Below are positions 621 through 8,929 of a DNA stretch of 12,071 nucleotides, piece by piece. The notes under the pieces were generated by a model that was given only the letters and a program-made list of their open reading frames with translations, was not told the DNA's origin and did not search any database. How positions within the stretch are numbered: the first letter of the stretch is position 1; every line of letters begins with the position of its first letter. Source of the DNA: a virus; the UHGV virus genome UHGV-0371921; one strand, written 5' to 3'. The translations under genes and the position numbers were made by a program.

Positions 621-938
621 ATGCAAATTGAGATCACTGGCAACGTAGAAATCACCGAAGGCATGGTGTCTTTCATTTCCCACAAAATGTCAAAACTGGA
701 GCGTCTACATCCTTCTGTAAATCATGCACGTGTAAGTGTAAAAGTTGAAAATGATCACCAGGAAGTTATGGCGTTCATTTTTGACACTTCTGGAAAAGAA
801 GTTATTGCCAAAGCTAAGGGCAGTGATGCTTACGAGGCAACTGACCGTATGGTGGATGTTGCAGCACGTCAGCTGGCTAAATGCGGTGGAAAGAAAGGTA
901 AAGGGAAAGGCAAAGTAAAGATTGACTTTGGAGAATGA
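621..938 (+). CDS. hpf: ribosome hibernation promoting factor-like protein (RaiA/HPF/YfiA, S30AE family) with Lys/Gly-rich C-terminal tail
   Basis: MQIEITGNVEITE...KLE...VSVKVE...GKEVIAKAKGSDAYEATDRMVDVAARQLAK matches by eye E. coli Hpf (MQLNITGNNVEITE...KLE...VVLKVE...GGEIHASAEGQDMYAAIDGLIDKLARQLTK). Weak SD AAGGA; own promoter at 545-573. Confidence 0.7.
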   Translation: MQIEITGNVEITEGMVSFISHKMSKLERLHPSVNHARVSVKVENDHQEVMAFIFDTSGKEVIAKAKGSDAYEATDRMVDVAARQLAKCGGKKGKGKGKVKIDFGE

Positions 939-2440: not shown

Positions 2441-2479
2441 CACACAGGTGTTGACAACACCAACCCTGTGTGAAATAAT
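2441..2479 (+). promoter_or_regulatory. sigma70-like promoter TTGACA-N17-AATAAT with the -35 box embedded in an 8 bp inverted repeat
   Basis: TTGACA 2451-2456, AATAAT 2474-2479; inverted repeat CACACAGG 2441-2448 / CCTGTGTG 2465-2472 flanks the -35 box (possible operator). Confidence 0.5.
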
Positions 2480-2769: not shown

Positions 2770-3120
2770 ATGAAAGTAGAAATTACTGGTTTTGATGTTA
2801 GTGTGGTTCCGGAAGATATTTTAGCTAACTTACCGGAAGGTTTTGGTAACGGTGTTGTGGTGGATGCTGTTCCTCCTACCAAAGACATTCTGCTGCAGTA
2901 TGGTGTAGCAGAGAAAGATGTCGATAAAGTTCTTACAATGATGGCAATCGATCGTGTTGTCGTTGTTAAAGGTCTCGATAATTTTGAGAGTGATCCTCTG
3001 ATTATTCGCGGAGATGACTACAAAATCATCGATAATGAAGGCCAAGAGTTCTATGAGCCTTGTGCAGAAGATATTCTTAACTTATTACTGGAAGCAGGCA
3101 CCGAAGAGGAGGACGAATAA
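2770..3120 (+). CDS. hypothetical acidic protein (116 aa)
   Basis: ATG follows upstream TAA directly; GAGGTG SD; acidic C-terminus. Confidence 0.7.
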   Translation: MKVEITGFDVSVVPEDILANLPEGFGNGVVVDAVPPTKDILLQYGVAEKDVDKVLTMMAIDRVVVVKGLDNFESDPLIIRGDDYKIIDNEGQEFYEPCAEDILNLLLEAGTEEEDE

Positions 3121-3449
3121 TGAAGATTGACCAGTTACTGAAGGCTCGTGCAGAAAAAGCGTACACCATTAAGCTGACCAATCTGGTTCCTACTTGTCAT
3201 CCGGATGTAGGTTGGCCCGAAGGTCTGGTAGAGGGAACTGTAACAGCTGCATACCTTCCTGACATCAAGTACCTTATGGAGATCTTAGAGATGGATGAGG
3301 AAACTGCAGAACAGTTCCAGTTAGATATGAAACAGAGTGGGACTCTGGTTATTCACGGGTGGTATAATACTAAAGATGCAGAAGACCCTCTGGTAACTTC
3401 TAATCTGGCATATGAAATCTTAGGTCCTTTGAACCTGGAGGAAGACTAA
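3120..3449 (+). CDS. hypothetical acidic protein (109 aa)
   Basis: TAATG overlap with upstream gene; GAGGAGGA SD. Confidence 0.7.
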   Translation: MKIDQLLKARAEKAYTIKLTNLVPTCHPDVGWPEGLVEGTVTAAYLPDIKYLMEILEMDEETAEQFQLDMKQSGTLVIHGWYNTKDAEDPLVTSNLAYEILGPLNLEED

Positions 3450-3736
3450 TGAAAGATCTGGTTAAGATTAAGATTAAAGATACCAATGGAGAACTCAGCC
3501 ATTTTGGAATTAATGATGGTGACGAGCTGATCGCACACCTGCCTACTAAGGAGGTTGTAAGCAAAGCAGTTGCCGGAGAAGAAGCTGCAATGCAGGCTGC
3601 AGGCGTGGATGAAAACTATGTAGCTATGTGCATGTGCCGAGATCAGGTTGTTCTGTATAAAGCGTATCGACCAAACGGAGCCACGGAGTGGCTTGTATTC
3701 CGACCCGAAGGATATGAAATCTTAGAGGCACTATGA
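3449..3736 (+). CDS. hypothetical protein (95 aa)
   Basis: TAATG overlap with upstream gene; GGAGG SD. Confidence 0.7.
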   Translation: MKDLVKIKIKDTNGELSHFGINDGDELIAHLPTKEVVSKAVAGEEAAMQAAGVDENYVAMCMCRDQVVLYKAYRPNGATEWLVFRPEGYEILEAL

Positions 3737-3816
3737 TAAATCTTGCCAAGGTTGCAACGGCACTGTTAATTATTTGCTGGTCTGTAACCTTAACACTGTG
3801 TCTTGTATTTCAGTGA
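3733..3816 (+). CDS. small hydrophobic peptide (27 aa, MINLAKVATALLIICWSVTLTLCLVFQ), predicted single transmembrane helix
   Basis: ATG 3733 overlaps upstream stop (ATGA); AGAGG 5 nt upstream; stop TGA 3814-3816; below ORF-track cutoff. Confidence 0.35.
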   Translation: MINLAKVATALLIICWSVTLTLCLVFQ

Positions 3817-3825
3817 GGTGCTTGT

Positions 3826-4089
3826 ATGAACATCCTGATGTGGGTTATAGCAGTGGCGTTTGTTGCATGTTTTTGCTGCTGGGTTGCGGTGAGGATTTCT
3901 GTAGCTACCCTTCGGAAGTTGGGGTTCTCAGAATGGGATATTAATATCCTTTCTTTTCGCAATGAAACAATCTCAGCCGCCCTGCTTTGTAAGAAATTCA
4001 AGTGGGAACCTTGTGAGGTCATGAGCTATCTAAGAACAGGCGATATCCCTGAAAGATTTAAAAAAGTTCTTGACGGCAAAGATAAATGA
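3826..4089 (+). CDS. small membrane protein (87 aa) with N-terminal transmembrane helix
   Basis: ATG 3826 with GTGAGGTG SD 7 nt upstream; N-terminus MNILMWVIAVAFVACFCCWVAV is strongly hydrophobic. Confidence 0.65.
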   Translation: MNILMWVIAVAFVACFCCWVAVRISVATLRKLGFSEWDINILSFRNETISAALLCKKFKWEPCEVMSYLRTGDIPERFKKVLDGKDK

Positions 4090-4117
4090 CAGTATAGTGA
4101 CTAACAAGAGGTGAGGA

Positions 4118-4258
4118 GTGACTGATTTTACTGAAGCTTTAATGATGGCCTTGTCTGTTTTAGCGCTATCGGTGTGTTTTGGGGCGTTATTCACATCTCT
4201 GGTTAAAGTTTTACATACAGTATTATTACCCAAGGGGCGCAGTAATGACGAAGATTGA
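4118..4258 (+). CDS. small hydrophobic peptide (46 aa from GTG 4118, or 38 aa from ATG 4142)
   Basis: AAGAGG 4106-4111 lies 6 nt before GTG 4118; product ...MMALSVLALSVCFGALFTSLVKVLHTVLLPKGRSNDED contains one hydrophobic helix; 3' end overlaps the next gene start by 14 nt. Confidence 0.35.
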   Translation: MTDFTEALMMALSVLALSVCFGALFTSLVKVLHTVLLPKGRSNDED

Positions 4259-4496
4259 CTTGAATGCTGGAGACCATGTTGTTGTCAAATGCATCGGAGA
4301 TTATCTTGGATTCACAATCGGCAATACTTACGAGGCGGTAGTGGCGAAGGTTTATCATGATAAAGTCCTCAGTCTTGTATTTGACTGCGATGATGATGGA
4401 GATGACCGATACGTCTGTGAGGTGCTGGCACGAGACGACAGTGAAGACCAGAAATTCCTGGTTATTGAACTGAACGGTATTTTTGTAGAACGTTAA
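4245..4496 (+). CDS. hypothetical acidic protein (83 aa)
   Basis: Track begins at TTG 4179; the in-frame ATG 4245 with AAGGGG 7 nt upstream is preferred; contains DCDDDGDD acidic stretch. Confidence 0.6.
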   Translation: MTKIDLNAGDHVVVKCIGDYLGFTIGNTYEAVVAKVYHDKVLSLVFDCDDDGDDRYVCEVLARDDSEDQKFLVIELNGIFVER

Positions 4497-4524
4497 TTTA
4501 AAACAACATAAGGAGACTCTTACT

Positions 4525-4830
4525 ATGGCTAAATCTAAAGTTGAACTGTTCACCTCTCTTCCTTCTGACACTGCAGAGCGTGATCGCCTTCGCAAGACAA
4601 TCGAAGAACTGGTGGAACTCCAACTTCAGATTAAAGATCTGAAAGATGCCATTAAGGATATCATTCTCGTTGAGAAGCAGGATCACCTGTATTCTCCTAA
4701 ATTCATCAAATCTTTGGTGGCTACCGAGTTCGATATTCGCTATGAGGCTGAAAAACGTCGAGCTAAAATCGAAGAAGAGGTTGAGCACATGTCCGAGGCA
4801 GACATTCTGTTCAAACGCTCTGTAGAATAA
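4525..4830 (+). CDS. hypothetical charged, probably alpha-helical or coiled-coil protein (101 aa)
   Basis: Consensus AAGGAG 4510-4515, 9 nt before ATG; strong terminator directly downstream; heptad-like charged sequence. Confidence 0.75.
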   Translation: MAKSKVELFTSLPSDTAERDRLRKTIEELVELQLQIKDLKDAIKDIILVEKQDHLYSPKFIKSLVATEFDIRYEAEKRRAKIEEEVEHMSEADILFKRSVE

Positions 4831-4838
4831 TGACAAAG

Positions 4839-4863
4839 AGAGGGGCTTGGGCCCCTCTTTTTA
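4839..4863 (+). terminator. intrinsic terminator (AGAGGGGC-TTGG-GCCCCTCT then TTTTT)
   Basis: Perfect 8 bp GC-rich stem 4839-4846 / 4851-4858 followed by T5 tract. Confidence 0.8.
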
Positions 4864-6438: not shown

Positions 6439-6532
6439 CGCACAATTAGCTGCCCGGCCAAAGTGCTGGAAGCGCACCTATAACACATCTTTCAACTAAA
6501 TTTCCCACCACCACAATCACTTACCTTCCACA

Positions 6533-6565
6533 CATGACTGTTTGCTTGTTTAGTGAGCAGTCATG
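6533..6565 (+). other. inverted repeat CATGACTG-N17-CAGTCATG immediately upstream of a promoter
   Basis: 8 bp arms at 6533-6540 and 6558-6565. Confidence 0.4.
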
Positions 6566-6567
6566 CC

Positions 6568-6595
6568 TTGACATTCTTGCCTATCCTGATAAAAT
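6568..6595 (+). promoter_or_regulatory. sigma70-like promoter TTGACA-N16-TAAAAT reading into the ORF-free zone
   Basis: TTGACA 6568-6573, 16 nt spacer, TAAAAT 6590-6595; no ORF with a ribosome binding site follows. Confidence 0.45.
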
Positions 6596-7119
6596 TAAGT
6601 TCTTCTCTTTTCTTTTACCGAGTAATTCGGGTTTTCTGTTCTCTTCGGTTTGAAGGGGTATGGAGATACACCTGAGTGAACAGGGTGAACAACCGAACCA
6701 TTGGCTATGGCATTAGCATGGCGAAGCGGACGGGTGACGAAAGAGGGGCCGGAGGACACCAGTCACTGCCATATGATATATGGGTGATAACCTGAAGAGT
6801 CTGAATAAGTGTTTAAGTACCAGTCAGAGGAAAAGGTGAATGGTAGCCGAAGGGGAGGGGGGTTTCTTGTATCTTTAATTTGTATATTATGTATACACTT
6901 GTAAACCAATCTCATCTGAATCTGTTTACCACACAAAGCGAATAGAGACAAATATTACCTATTAAACTTGAATTATTTATAGAAAATACCGCAACACCAC
7001 TTAAGTCTTTGATTTTACACACAAATCCTACAGATATTCAGCCTCCCTATTTAACATACCTGTAACATATTCCATACTCTACCTGCCTGATCAATTTACC
7101 CAACTACATCCCCATATTT

Positions 7120-7350
7120 TCCCTGTCTGTACTACCCCTGCCCCGCCGGGAGTCCCGTCATATCTGGCTTTCCAGCAAATATCACACCCACAAATATCAT
7201 TGCCTGAAGAGGGTTTCATCCCATAATACATACCTTGCCTGAAGATCGCTTCATACACCACGTAAATTTTTTAATTGACCTGCAATTTCTCCTCAGATAT
7301 CCCCCTGTCCCGCCGGAGAGGTTGTCTTTTCCCACACAGACCTGAAGAGT
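7120..7350. repeat. degenerate ~175 bp duplication carrying CCCTG(C/T)CCCGCCGG and CCTGAAGAG motifs
   Basis: CCCTGCCCCGCCGGGAG at 7134-7150 versus CCCTGTCCCGCCGGAG at 7302-7317; CCTGAAGAG at 7203-7211 and 7341-7349 (also CCTGAAGAT at 7238-7246). Confidence 0.5.
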
Positions 7351-7544
7351 CAGTCAGAAATATCTGAATGGGCCCAGTTCTGCCCTGTCATGAGCGGTAG
7401 CGACTGGAGTGCTGCCAGGCGGACGGAATGGGAATACTTCTCATTCTTATAATAATTCTCAAATATCGAGGCAGTGAGGCAAATTAATAGGTGAGGCCGT
7501 TCACACAGTGGCACAACATTTGCAATCTATTTTGTGAGGGTGAA

Positions 7545-7579
7545 TGAGAATACCTATCATTGTGAGAATCTTTATCATT
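7545..7579. repeat. imperfect tandem repeat TGAGAAT(ACC/CTT)TATCATT x2
   Basis: Copies at 7545-7561 and 7563-7579, 14 of 17 positions identical. Confidence 0.5.
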
Positions 7580-7933
7580 ACGGGCAATTTAACATAATAC
7601 CCATTATGCGCACCACTGGCGATACATACAGGGATTGATAACATAGGTTACTGTTTACGCACATAACAATTATATTTCTTATTATTTGTGGGGGGATATA
7701 GTTAGCAGCCAATAGATTAGATATTGACCTGCAGACTTCTGACCGTCCAGACGTCTAAACGCCCACACAACAAGGATTATACATACAACACTGAATGTAA
7801 ACAGGGCCGCAAAAATGCTACCATACAAGCTTGTAAATTTTTCATGCAGCACTTGACAAAGAGGAGAAAAACTTGTCTGACATAATATGACACTTTAAGC
7901 ACATTAAACACACTGAACATAATTGACATGCAT

Positions 7934-8038
7934 GACTGTTTACGCTGTCACTATTCACGCTATTACTATTCGCTCGCTTACTGTTCATGACCTTTACTGT
8001 TTACATTCCCAATAGTTTACATAGCTTACTGTTAACGT
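7934..8038. repeat. iteron-like cluster of ACTGTTTAC / TTACTGTT direct repeats
   Basis: Exact ACTGTTTAC at 7935-7943 and 7996-8004 (also 7650-7658 and 8472-8480 outside the cluster); variants TTACTGTTCA 7978-7987, TAGTTTACA 8013-8021, TTACTGTTAAC 8026-8036; all in one orientation. Confidence 0.6.
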
Positions 8039-8064
8039 ATAGATTATTTACTCAAAAATGATAA

Positions 8065-8084
8065 GCCATGCCATTCGTTTGCAT
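8065..8084. repeat. 20 bp direct repeat GCCATGCCATTCGTTTGCAT, left copy
   Basis: Identical 20-mer recurs at 8296-8315. Confidence 0.8.
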
Positions 8085-8130
8085 GACAATAATTATACAT
8101 GACAATAATCGCACTGATTATAATTAGCAT

Positions 8131-8282
8131 GACATAATATAAAAGCAGGGCAACTATTAGCAGATCTATAGTTGCCTTGCTTGTTATGTCATGATTAACT
8201 GAATACAAGGCAACTATGATCTGATTAATAGATTGCAGACAAACTATCACGGGGGTGATGGTTACTGCTTTTATATTATGTC
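8131..8282. repeat. 16 bp inverted repeat pair GACATAATATAAAAGC (8131-8146) / GCTTTTATATTATGTC (8267-8282) enclosing the palindrome
   Basis: Exact reverse complements. Confidence 0.75.
8149..8176. repeat. 28 bp palindrome GGCAACTAT-N10-ATAGTTGCC (candidate protein-binding site)
   Basis: 9 bp arms are exact reverse complements; further GGCAACTAT copies at 8209-8217 (direct) and 8314-8322 (inverted); 12-mer CAAGGCAACTAT is shared by the arm at 8168-8179 and the copy at 8206-8217. Confidence 0.75.
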
Positions 8283-8295
8283 GCGACTCCGTCGC

Positions 8296-8315
8296 GCCAT
8301 GCCATTCGTTTGCAT
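8296..8315. repeat. 20 bp direct repeat GCCATGCCATTCGTTTGCAT, right copy
   Basis: Identical to 8065-8084; preceded by small hairpin CGCGAC-TCC-GTCGCG (8282-8296). Confidence 0.8.
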
Positions 8316-8929
8316 AGTTGCCTTATTGTTACAGATAGAATAATTGTATTGTTAATTATTTCTTATCTTTCTATTAGTCATCTAATGATTCCAGTTAGTA
8401 TAGTAACGTACAGTAAACATTAGACGACTAAAGATTTCTCTGCTTATGGTAACCTAACGTGACAATTCCAGACTGTTTACGAAAAATGTTGACACTTGGG
8501 CCGATTTATGTTATGCAGTTTACACGAATAATTATTTTATGCAGGTATTGACTATTCCGTTATTCTATGGTTGGAATAAATGCTTAGCAGGCTATAGAAT
8601 GGCGAGCGTACGTAAATTCTGAGATCTGGCGGCTATAGTTATACTCGATTTTTCACGTAGAAAACGCTTTTGTAGTTATGTAAGTGTATGACTTATAAGA
8701 ATTTTTAGTTGTTGACAAGCTATTGAAGATATGCATCAGGTTAAATTTTGTGCAAATGCTGCATTACGTGCAATTTTGGAAGGAAAAACGTGTAAAAATG
8801 GCCCTGCTACCACACAATGAAAAATTATGCAATAGTTATTTTATATGTATGTTTGTACAGTGGGGTTAATTGCTGGCTTGTTGATTATTCCATTTGCCAG
8901 GCGGGGCCATTTGTGGTAGGAAAAGAGGA

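What the first reader, a model, noticed from the sequence alone, without database searches (positions are those of the whole stretch)
3733..4258. Translationally coupled trio of small membrane proteins
A 27 aa peptide (3733-3816), an 87 aa protein with N-terminal transmembrane helix (3826-4089) and a 38-46 aa peptide (4118-4258) form a compact cassette. Two of the three fall below normal gene-calling cutoffs. Tiny membrane proteins in phage early regions commonly act in superinfection exclusion, inner-membrane depolarisation or holin/antiholin-like functions, or are type I toxin-like peptides.
Basis: partly seen in the sequence, partly recalled or inferred. Interest (0 to 1): 0.5.

Follow-up and report, generated by a model that had tools for sequence, protein, structure and literature searches.

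The report
Three small phage membrane-protein genes
Three tiny single-pass membrane-protein genes lie side by side in an early operon of an rV5-like E. coli phage: two are already deposited as "hypothetical proteins", the 27-codon one is a real gene that no public record annotates, and none has a known function.

Summary
The three ORFs exist exactly where reported. The window is from an rV5-like coliphage (Vequintavirus). orfB (3826-4089, 87 aa) is rV5 gp150 (PHROG 13956). orfC (4118-4258, 46 aa) is rV5 gp151 (PHROG 16755), already published as "membrane protein, 1 TMD". orfA (3733-3816, 27 aa) is annotated in none of 12 records inspected and is absent from a 15-billion-protein collection.

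All three behave as genes. orfB and orfC show clear purifying selection. orfA is intact in 118/118 phage genomes. It keeps its length, its 4-nt overlap with the upstream gene and a hydrophobic core through 53% nucleotide divergence (permutation P = 0.0002). A 26-27-codon hydrophobic ORF recurs at the same slot in distant uncultured phages whose orfB is only ~33% identical.

orfB and orfC were together in all six lineage groups sampled. orfA is dispensable: it is deleted, truncated or absent in four lineages.

Each protein has one strongly hydrophobic helix. orfB also carries a conserved four-helix domain, predicted cytoplasmic, with no fold or sequence relative. Holin, spanin, type I toxin and defence-family readings found no support. 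Function remains unknown.

Verdict: ordinary phage accessory membrane proteins, plus one new micro-gene.

The parts
2451..2479 (+). Sigma-70-type promoter (TTGACA-17-AATAAT with TG extension) at the head of the operon that contains the trio; equals rV5 P150
   Evidence: 11/12 match, TG present; annotated as promoter P150 in rV5; sequence
3449..3736 (+). Upstream 95-aa soluble protein (PHROG 12794). Its TGA stop overlaps the orfA start (ATGA), and its last codons (L-E) carry orfA's SD
   Evidence: (dN/dS 0.02-0.06)
3733..3816 (+). orfA: unannotated 27-codon gene for a hydrophobic single-helix micro-protein (MINLAKVATALLIICWSVTLTLCLVFQ). Optional member of the module
   Evidence: Intact in 118/118 phage records. 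Always 27 codons; start ATG<->GTG and stop TGA<->TAA exchanges. Permutation P=0.0002. Positional counterparts in distant clade with dN/dS 0.08-0.47. Never called in 15 billion proteins
3815..3820 (+). Shine-Dalgarno of orfB (GAGGTG), overlapping the orfA stop codon (TGA 3814-3816)
   Evidence: the stop-inside-SD arrangement recurs in every lineage that has orfA
3826..4089 (+). orfB: 87-aa protein (rV5 gp150/ORF155, PHROG 13956). N-terminal hydrophobic helix (about 2-22) plus a conserved four-helix C-terminal domain
   Evidence: dN/dS 0.06-0.11; invariant G33 F34 E36 I39 L42 R45 E47 A51 L54 C55 E64 G72 K80; AF2 pLDDT 84.5
4070..4098 (+). Promoter-like element TTGACG-17-TATAGT spanning the end of orfB and the spacer. 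Possible internal promoter for orfC and downstream genes (inferred)
   Evidence: 10/12. Conserved as TTGACT-17-TATTAT in L006/L007 despite divergent flanks. TTGACA-17-TAAACT in L035
4107..4117 (+). Shine-Dalgarno region of orfC (AGAGGTGAGGA)
   Evidence: annotated as RBS in phages LL12 and Mangalyan
4118..4258 (+). orfC: 46-aa single-pass membrane protein (rV5 gp151/ORF156, PHROG 16755). Acidic N-terminus, one TM helix, charged tail
   Evidence: rV5 Table S3 lists it as 'membrane protein, 1 TMD'
4245..4496 (+). Downstream 83-aa acidic protein (PHROG 12851). Its start lies 14 nt inside orfC, and this overlap (14 or 4 nt) is kept in all lineages
   Evidence: (dN/dS 0.02-0.03)
4525..4830 (+). Last gene of the operon: 101-aa protein of PHROG 639 ('transcriptional regulator'; called DsbA-like in some records)
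4839..4862 (+). Rho-independent terminator (AGAGGGGC-TTGG-GCCCCTCT + TTTT) ending the operon
   Evidence: Sequence; annotated as terminator in rV5

Best explanation
Shown: orfA, orfB and orfC are three genuine protein-coding genes of an rV5-like lytic coliphage. They are transcribed by host RNA polymerase from the sigma-70 promoter at 2451-2479, and possibly also from an internal promoter at 4070-4098. They are translated in a chain with their neighbours: ATGA overlap into orfA, orfA's stop inside orfB's SD, and orfC overlapping the next gene. Each product has one strongly hydrophobic helix. orfB+orfC is the pair found together in all six lineage groups sampled, inside a conserved five-gene block. 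orfA is a fast-evolving, dispensable micro-protein that occupies a fixed slot. Inferred: all three insert into the host inner membrane early in infection. By the positive-inside rule, orfB and orfC are N-out/C-in, which places orfB's conserved four-helix domain and orfC's charged tail on the cytoplasmic face. orfA is N-in. I propose they form a small accessory membrane complex with an orfB-orfC core and orfA as a modulator. This complex would act from the cytoplasmic face of the membrane. It would either protect the infected cell's envelope against secondary infection (superinfection exclusion) or tether or sequester a cytoplasmic partner at the membrane. It would not take part in lysis. Likelihoods: real genes encoding membrane proteins about 0.85-0.9; orfB-orfC acting together about 0.5; the specific exclusion or tethering role about 0.25.
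For: Identity and annotation: rV5 gp150, gp151; PHROG 13956, 16755. Coding signal: third-position-dominated variation and dN/dS of 0.06-0.11 for orfB and 0.14-0.44 for orfC; Fisher tests. orfA: 16/16 aligned genomes and 118/118 records keep the 27-codon frame. There are stop-to-stop and start-to-start codon exchanges. It shows 53% nt divergence without indels while staying hydrophobic, with permutation P=0.0002. ATGA-coupled 26-27-aa hydrophobic ORFs of two other sequence types occupy the same slot in distant phages, with dN/dS down to 0.08. Clean losses (deletion, nonsense, start loss, absence) mark it as a dispensable gene. Module: orfB and orfC co-occur in every lineage group examined (rV5-like, L007, L006, L024, L035, L020-L030), with conserved junction geometry. 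Membrane character: KD19 of 2.3-2.6 and charge distribution. AF2 model of orfB: pLDDT 84.5, helix 2-32 then four short helices. rV5 Table S3 calls ORF156 a 1-TMD membrane protein, and phage A51.2 annotates orfB as 'putative membrane protein'. Expression context: promoter and terminator. Not lysis: the rV5 lysin gp89 and putative holin gp129 are elsewhere.
Confidence: 0.55

Rival explanations
1. orfA is not a functional protein. The 84-nt stretch is a translated spacer (a coupling 'relay' ORF) that only passes ribosomes from the upstream gene to orfB, and the peptide itself is irrelevant.
For: orfA's stop lies inside orfB's SD and its start overlaps the upstream stop. In lineages without orfA, orfB is coupled directly to the upstream gene with a gap of -1 to 13 nt. 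Sequence conservation is weak, and three unrelated sequence types occupy the slot.
Against: A pure relay would not need to keep a hydrophobic, charge-free core, yet permutation gives P=0.0002-0.006. Length stays at 26-27 codons in all types. Type-2 peptides show dN/dS as low as 0.08. N3, K6 and C23 are invariant across the rV5-like, L007 and L006 lineages.
Confidence: 0.12
2. The trio is a lysis-control set: a holin, antiholin or spanin-like group that times or executes lysis.
For: Small proteins with one TM helix and charged C-termini resemble class III holins and antiholins. The rV5 holin assignment (gp129) is itself only a prediction.
Against: The operon is driven by a host sigma-70 promoter and lies far from the lysin gene gp89. 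No lipobox for an o-spanin: the residue before the conserved Cys varies among G, A, V, I and L. orfB's conserved domain is predicted cytoplasmic rather than periplasmic. No PHROG lysis category: both families are 'unknown function'.
Confidence: 0.07
3. orfA and/or orfC are type I toxin-like or host-killing peptides that depolarise the inner membrane to shut the host down.
For: Their size (27 and 46 aa) and single hydrophobic helix match TisB, Hok, Ldr, Ibs and Sho-type peptides (established knowledge). Expression from an early promoter would fit host shut-off.
Against: Type I architecture is absent. There is no dedicated promoter with a long structured leader. There is no antisense RNA: promoter-like sites on the minus strand are at chance level, 6 found against 5.8 expected. 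No Rfam family was hit, and the orfA region shows no unusual RNA folding (z=-1.26). No NCBIfam or Pfam toxin family was hit. The peptides are embedded in, and translationally chained to, a conserved block of soluble proteins.
Confidence: 0.1
4. orfA is not an independent gene but the C-terminal membrane anchor of the upstream 95-aa protein, added by programmed -1 ribosomal frameshifting near its stop codon.
For: orfA is in the -1 frame relative to the upstream gene and begins exactly at its stop. In lineages lacking orfA the upstream protein carries a C-terminal extension.
Against: No slippery heptamer precedes the stop in the window or in L021 (sequences). A start codon (ATG or GTG) with an SD at proper distance is conserved in every intact copy. 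The extension in orfA-less lineages is acidic, not hydrophobic. There is no stimulatory RNA structure.
Confidence: 0.03

Closest known systems
rV5 gp150 (ORF155) / PHROG 13956 and rV5 gp151 (ORF156) / PHROG 16755
   Same: orfB and orfC are these genes: 100% and about 96% amino-acid identity, with full-length PHROG matches (E 1e-61 and 5e-35). ORF156 was published as 'membrane protein, 1 TMD'.
   Different: Nothing beyond 'hypothetical protein' is recorded for them. The link between the two, their conservation in distant uncultured phages and the existence of orfA are not in the records inspected.
T4 Imm and Sp (superinfection-exclusion membrane proteins)
   Same: Small (83 and 97 aa) inner-membrane proteins made early by a lytic myovirus, with accessory and dispensable roles (established knowledge).
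   Different: No sequence or family match. Sp's functional domain is periplasmic, whereas orfB's is predicted cytoplasmic. No exclusion phenotype has been tested.
phi29 p16.7 (membrane-anchored early protein that organises phage DNA replication at the membrane)
   Same: N-terminal TM helix followed by a small all-helical cytoplasmic domain, with early expression (established knowledge).
Type I toxins and small hydrophobic peptides (TisB, Hok, Ldr, Ibs, ShoB)
   Same: Peptides of 19-50 aa with a single hydrophobic helix, comparable to orfA and orfC in size and composition.
   Different: No antisense RNA, no own promoter or leader, no family hit. They are chained translationally inside a phage operon.
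Phage and bacterial smORF micro-proteins found by comparative genomics (e.g. PMC11364881, PMC11188072)
   Same: orfA is a typical case: under 30 codons, hydrophobic, missed by gene callers, and detectable only by conservation.
   Different: Here the slot, rather than the sequence, is conserved: three unrelated 26-27-aa peptide types occur with identical gene junctions.

Membership tests
PHROG 13956 (orfB) and PHROG 16755 (orfC) | Full-length significant match to the family profile | tested here: met
   E=1.2e-61 (1-87 of 87) and 4.7e-35 (1-46 of 46). The distant-clade orfB also hits PHROG 13956 at 5.7e-10.
Holin / antiholin | Membrane protein with at least one TMD and a charged C-terminus | tested here: met
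   One hydrophobic helix in each protein, with charged tails in orfB and orfC. This feature is not specific to holins.
Holin / antiholin | Late expression and/or linkage to the endolysin gene | tested here: not met
   The operon has a sigma-70 promoter. rV5 lysin gp89 and putative holin gp129 lie elsewhere.
Holin / antiholin | Causes or delays lysis when expressed with the endolysin | not testable with these tools
   Needs an experiment.
Two-component spanin | o-spanin lipobox ([LVI][ASTVI][GAS]C) and an i-spanin with a long periplasmic coiled coil | tested here: not met
   The residue before the conserved Cys of orfB is G, A, V, I or L. orfC has LSVC and orfA LIIC/LTLC, neither canonical. orfB's soluble domain is about 55 aa of short helices.
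Type I toxin-antitoxin | Small hydrophobic toxin peptide | tested here: met
   orfA (27 aa) and orfC (46 aa) have KD19 of 2.3-2.4. Not specific.
Type I toxin-antitoxin | Antisense or overlapping sRNA antitoxin, and an own promoter with a structured leader | tested here: not met
   No Rfam hit. Minus-strand promoter-like sites are at chance level. No unusual RNA structure. The genes are embedded in an operon with overlapping neighbours.
Type I toxin-antitoxin | Match to a known toxin family (Hok, Ldr, TisB, Ibs, Sho, Fst and others) | tested here: not met
   No Pfam or NCBIfam hit at E<=1 for orfA or orfC.
T4 Imm/Sp-type superinfection exclusion | Sequence or profile similarity to Imm or Sp families | tested here: not met
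   Pfam scan at E<=1 returns only DUF6522 at E=0.24 for orfB and nothing for orfA or orfC. PHROG categories are 'unknown function'.
T4 Imm/Sp-type superinfection exclusion | Blocks DNA entry of a secondary phage | not testable with these tools
   Needs a superinfection assay.
Known anti-phage defence or counter-defence proteins (PADLOC) | Profile match | tested here: not met
   No hit for orfA, orfB, orfC or either flanking protein.

The most novel reading that the evidence does not exclude
The slot between the upstream gene and orfB may be a site where transmembrane micro-proteins are repeatedly born, replaced and lost. Three mutually unrecognisable 26-27-aa hydrophobic peptides occupy it with identical junction geometry, and four lineages have none. 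These peptides, with orfC, would tune a previously unrecognised phage inner-membrane complex built around orfB's fold-orphan cytoplasmic domain. That would give a natural system for studying de novo emergence and turnover of membrane micro-proteins, and a new phage membrane machine.
Probability: 0.15. Interest if true: 0.55.

Novelty: new member of a known kind. Interest (0 to 1): 0.3.

Why it matters
The practical gain is modest. It adds a never-annotated 27-codon gene to 118 sequenced Vequintavirus genomes, several of which are used or proposed for biocontrol and are part of the BASEL reference collection. It also defines orfB+orfC as a conserved membrane-protein pair whose orfB family has only two 50%-identity representatives among 1.84 billion. 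If the module proves to mediate superinfection exclusion or membrane tethering, it would be a new, sequence-orphan solution to a known phage task. The orfA slot would then be a neat example of rapid turnover of transmembrane micro-proteins. As it stands, it is a well-supported but functionally uncharacterised accessory module, like many in large lytic phages.

Tried and rejected
1. Remote homology for orfB. The word-indexed search found 4 clusters and the exhaustive HMM search found 2 representatives. The profile search found 42 clusters, all unnamed and without Pfam domains. No function emerged.
3. Pfam, PHROG, PADLOC, NCBIfam and PDB-sequence scans of all three proteins and their neighbours gave nothing informative.
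4. A scan of bacterial genomes for orfB found no relative, so there is no host or prophage homologue.
5. Structured-RNA or sRNA alternatives: no Rfam hit and fold z=-1.26.
6. Homology between rV5-type and distant-type orfC: hhalign probability 5%. They are treated as positional analogues only.
7. Literature. CRISPRi-ART used the rV5-like phage EdH4 only for the capsid and rII genes. No transcriptome, Ribo-seq or proteome covering these genes was found.
8. Structure of the coupled downstream 83-aa protein: pLDDT 61.8 with 4 sequences. This is too weak for a fold search, which was not run.
10. Open frame alone was rejected as evidence for orfA, because a second frame of the same stretch is also stop-free. 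The argument rests instead on hydrophobicity-preserving divergence, junction conservation and synteny.

Full report
SOURCE AND CONTEXT

The window is from an rV5-like lytic coliphage (genus Vequintavirus). The stretch 3400-4600 matches 118 phage records at 91.5-99.6% identity. The whole window is collinear with rV5 itself. An IMG/VR contig (L004) is 100% identical over 3440-4510.

In rV5 this region belongs to a block of 88 mainly small ORFs (PMC3606486). The trio sits in an operon that starts at a sigma-70 promoter at 2451-2479 (TTGACA-17-AATAAT with an upstream TG), annotated as P150 in rV5. The operon ends at a rho-independent terminator at 4839-4862.

THE OBSERVATION

- orfB is rV5 gp150/ORF155 (PHROG 13956).
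- orfC is rV5 gp151/ORF156 (PHROG 16755). The rV5 paper's Table S3 already lists ORF156 as "membrane protein, 1 TMD" and leaves ORF155 blank.
- orfA is annotated in none of the twelve records I inspected: rV5, LL12, A51.2, YP-6, FV3, ECP32, HMD-6, Alma, Mangalyan, PMBT16, JEP1 and WalterGehring. Two of these call ORFs of about 30 codons elsewhere. The exact orfA peptide is also absent from a collection of about 15 billion predicted proteins.

ARE THEY GENES?

I aligned the window with 15 distinct relatives, spanning 78-99% nucleotide identity.

orfB varies mainly at third codon positions (22/13/57 variable columns at positions 1/2/3). Its dN/dS is 0.06-0.11. Synonymous changes are enriched in both the TM part and the soluble part (Fisher p from 4e-3 to 1e-10).

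orfC is always 46 codons, with dN/dS of 0.14-0.44 and p down to 2e-5 in its TM part. Its GTG start in the window is ATG in 10 of 16 sequences. Codons 2-8 carry only synonymous changes against L007. The 46-aa form is therefore the supported one, not the 38-aa form that PMBT16 annotates.

orfA is weaker by dN/dS (0.14-0.59), and a second frame of the stretch is also stop-free. Other evidence is stronger:
- It is exactly 27 codons in 16/16 aligned sequences and full-length in 118/118 records.
- Its start alternates between ATG and GTG while always overlapping the upstream TGA. Its stop alternates between TGA and TAA.
- Against the most divergent relative (L006) the stretch has 53% nucleotide differences, compared with 13-23% in the neighbouring genes. 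It has no indel and no polar residue in its core.
- When those 41 substitutions are placed at random, 30% of trials keep the frame open, but only 0.02% also keep an equally hydrophobic core.

DISTANT RELATIVES AND SYNTENY

An exhaustive profile search of 1.84 billion representatives found only two remote orfB relatives. A profile search of 5.8 billion proteins found 42 clusters, all unnamed and nearly all on 20-140 kb uncultured phage contigs.

In the distant clade, where orfB is about 33% identical, the whole block recurs:
- an upstream-gene homologue;
- an ATGA-coupled 26-27-codon hydrophobic ORF;
- orfB;
- a 45-48-aa hydrophobic ORF;
- the downstream-gene homologue overlapping it;
- the 101-aa PHROG-639 protein.

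The mini-ORF in the orfA slot comes in two further sequence types (MKENLDLVLAFVILVVLVTVAGIAAL and MNKEMLKLFLGTMAITAVAVITLIILL). Within type 2, dN/dS is 0.08-0.47.

The slot is also empty or decayed in four lineages:
- a clean deletion in L029;
- a premature stop in L026;
- loss of the coupled start in L030;
- no orfA at all in the intermediate lineages L024 and L035-37, where the upstream protein instead carries an acidic 19-aa extension.

orfB and orfC are present together in every lineage group examined. In L035-37 the gene caller missed orfB because of its overlapping GTG start.

Junction geometry is conserved throughout:
- upstream gene to orfA: 4-nt overlap;
- orfA to orfB: 9-11 nt, with the stop embedded in the SD;
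- orfB to orfC: 27-36 nt in the rV5-like and intermediate lineages, 9-11 nt in the distant clade;
- orfC to downstream gene: overlap of 14 or 4 nt.

Between clades, neither orfA nor orfC types are recognisably homologous (hhalign probability 5% for orfC). For these two, what is conserved is position, size, architecture and coupling.

WHAT THE PROTEINS LOOK LIKE

Each has one 19-residue window with Kyte-Doolittle mean 2.3-2.6, against 0.5-0.8 for the flanking proteins. Each also has a negative summed insertion free energy on the Hessa scale, whose values I entered from memory.

Charge distribution with the positive-inside rule (established knowledge) predicts the following topologies:
- orfA is N-in: K6 precedes the helix and nothing follows it.
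- orfB is N-out/C-in: no charge before the helix, three basic residues after it.
- orfC is N-out/C-in: an acidic N-terminus, with basic residues after the helix.

FUNCTION

Nothing in Pfam, PHROGs, PADLOC, NCBIfam, PDB sequences or Rfam assigns a function. I found no transcriptomic, ribosome-profiling or knock-down data for these genes.

The holin, antiholin and spanin readings are disfavoured. The promoter is host-type, the rV5 lysin (gp89) and putative holin (gp129) lie elsewhere, there is no lipobox, and orfB's domain is predicted cytoplasmic.

The type I toxin reading lacks its defining architecture. There is no antisense RNA, no own promoter or leader, and no toxin family hit.

A -1 frameshift fusion of orfA to the upstream protein is unlikely. 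There is no slippery site, and a conserved start codon and SD are present.

My best mechanistic guess is explicitly an inference. The orfB-orfC pair, with orfA as an optional modulator, forms a small inner-membrane complex made early in infection. It would act from the cytoplasmic face. It would either make the envelope refractory to secondary infection, or tether or sequester a partner at the membrane, loosely as phi29 p16.7 does for replication. I give this specific role about 0.25. I give about 0.85-0.9 to the statement that these are real membrane-protein genes.

NOVELTY

orfB and orfC are already deposited, and orfC is published as a membrane protein. Three things are new:
- the evidence that orfA is a gene;
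- the recognition of orfB+orfC as a conserved pair inside a five-gene block shared with distant uncultured phages;
- the turnover pattern at the orfA slot.

This amounts to a new member of a known kind (phage small membrane proteins and smORFs), of modest interest.

UNCERTAINTIES

There is no experimental support. No dedicated TM or signal-peptide predictor was available. The rV5 authors' TMHMM/Phobius scan did not flag ORF155. orfA statistics rest on few independent lineages. The between-clade equivalence of orfA and orfC is positional, not demonstrably homologous.

Noticed in passing
window 4070-4098: A sigma-70 promoter-like element (TTGACG-17-TATAGT) spans the end of orfB and the orfB-orfC spacer. 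It is conserved, and closer to consensus (TTGACT-17-TATTAT), in the divergent L006/L007, and present as TTGACA-17-TAAACT in L035. It is not annotated in rV5. It may give orfC and the downstream genes their own transcript.
   Followed up: partly
L003 (rV5 NC_011041) 3449-3719, equivalent to window 3449-3736: The rV5 reference carries 2 extra bases that split the 95-aa upstream gene into gp148 and gp149. All 15 other aligned genomes have the intact 95-aa ORF, so this is probably a sequencing error or a strain-specific pseudogene. Similar single-record frameshifts occur at the orfB C-terminus in phage Alma (L019) and in the downstream gene of ECP32 (L017).
   Followed up: partly
window about 6440-8800: An ORF-poor stretch where gene orientation switches; the rV5 paper calls the equivalent 104013-106618 'non-coding'. 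GC drops to 0.35 at 7800-8400. There is an 18-nt perfect inverted repeat (8131-8148 / 8265-8282) and several short direct repeats. No tRNA or Rfam hit. Some records fill it with many ORFs of about 30-60 codons. It could be an origin or regulatory region.
   Followed up: partly
L021 3125-3460 (also L025, L027, L028, L029, L030): The distant clade carries an extra 110-111-aa gene (zinc ribbon plus TM2 domain, PF05154, E=1.7e-13) between the downstream gene and the PHROG-639 regulator-like gene. It is a fourth membrane protein in the same block and is absent from rV5-like phages.
   Followed up: no
window 3120-3449: The 109-aa product of this gene (rV5 ORF152), two genes upstream of orfA in the same sigma-70-driven operon, is listed as 'structural protein (MS evidence)' in the rV5 paper's Table S3. 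A virion-associated protein is unexpected in what looks like an early operon.
   Followed up: no
phage records MG065635-MG065690 (hits): Eighteen unannotated records named 'Campylobacter phage' with host Campylobacter jejuni are 97-99% identical to E. coli rV5-like phages across this region. They are probably mislabelled or contaminant assemblies.
   Followed up: no
L024 13-273 and L035 1752-2081: In the two lineages that lack orfA, the upstream protein has an acidic C-terminal extension of about 19 aa (…NVYPNDDDDDEIKTLMVTF), and orfB starts -1 to +1 nt from its stop. Whether orfA and this extension derive from one another was not resolved.
   Followed up: no
window 621-938: The phage encodes a RaiA/HPF-type ribosome hibernation factor homologue (annotated in rV5 and many relatives). 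This is known, but notable in a lytic phage.
   Followed up: no
L037 (NCBI GCA_002973135.1, contig JZQG01000013.1): An 11.7-kb contig in an assembly labelled Escherichia coli carries the orfA-less version of the block. It is probably phage DNA co-assembled with the host, not a chromosomal homologue; the genome-wide scan for orfB found none.
   Followed up: no
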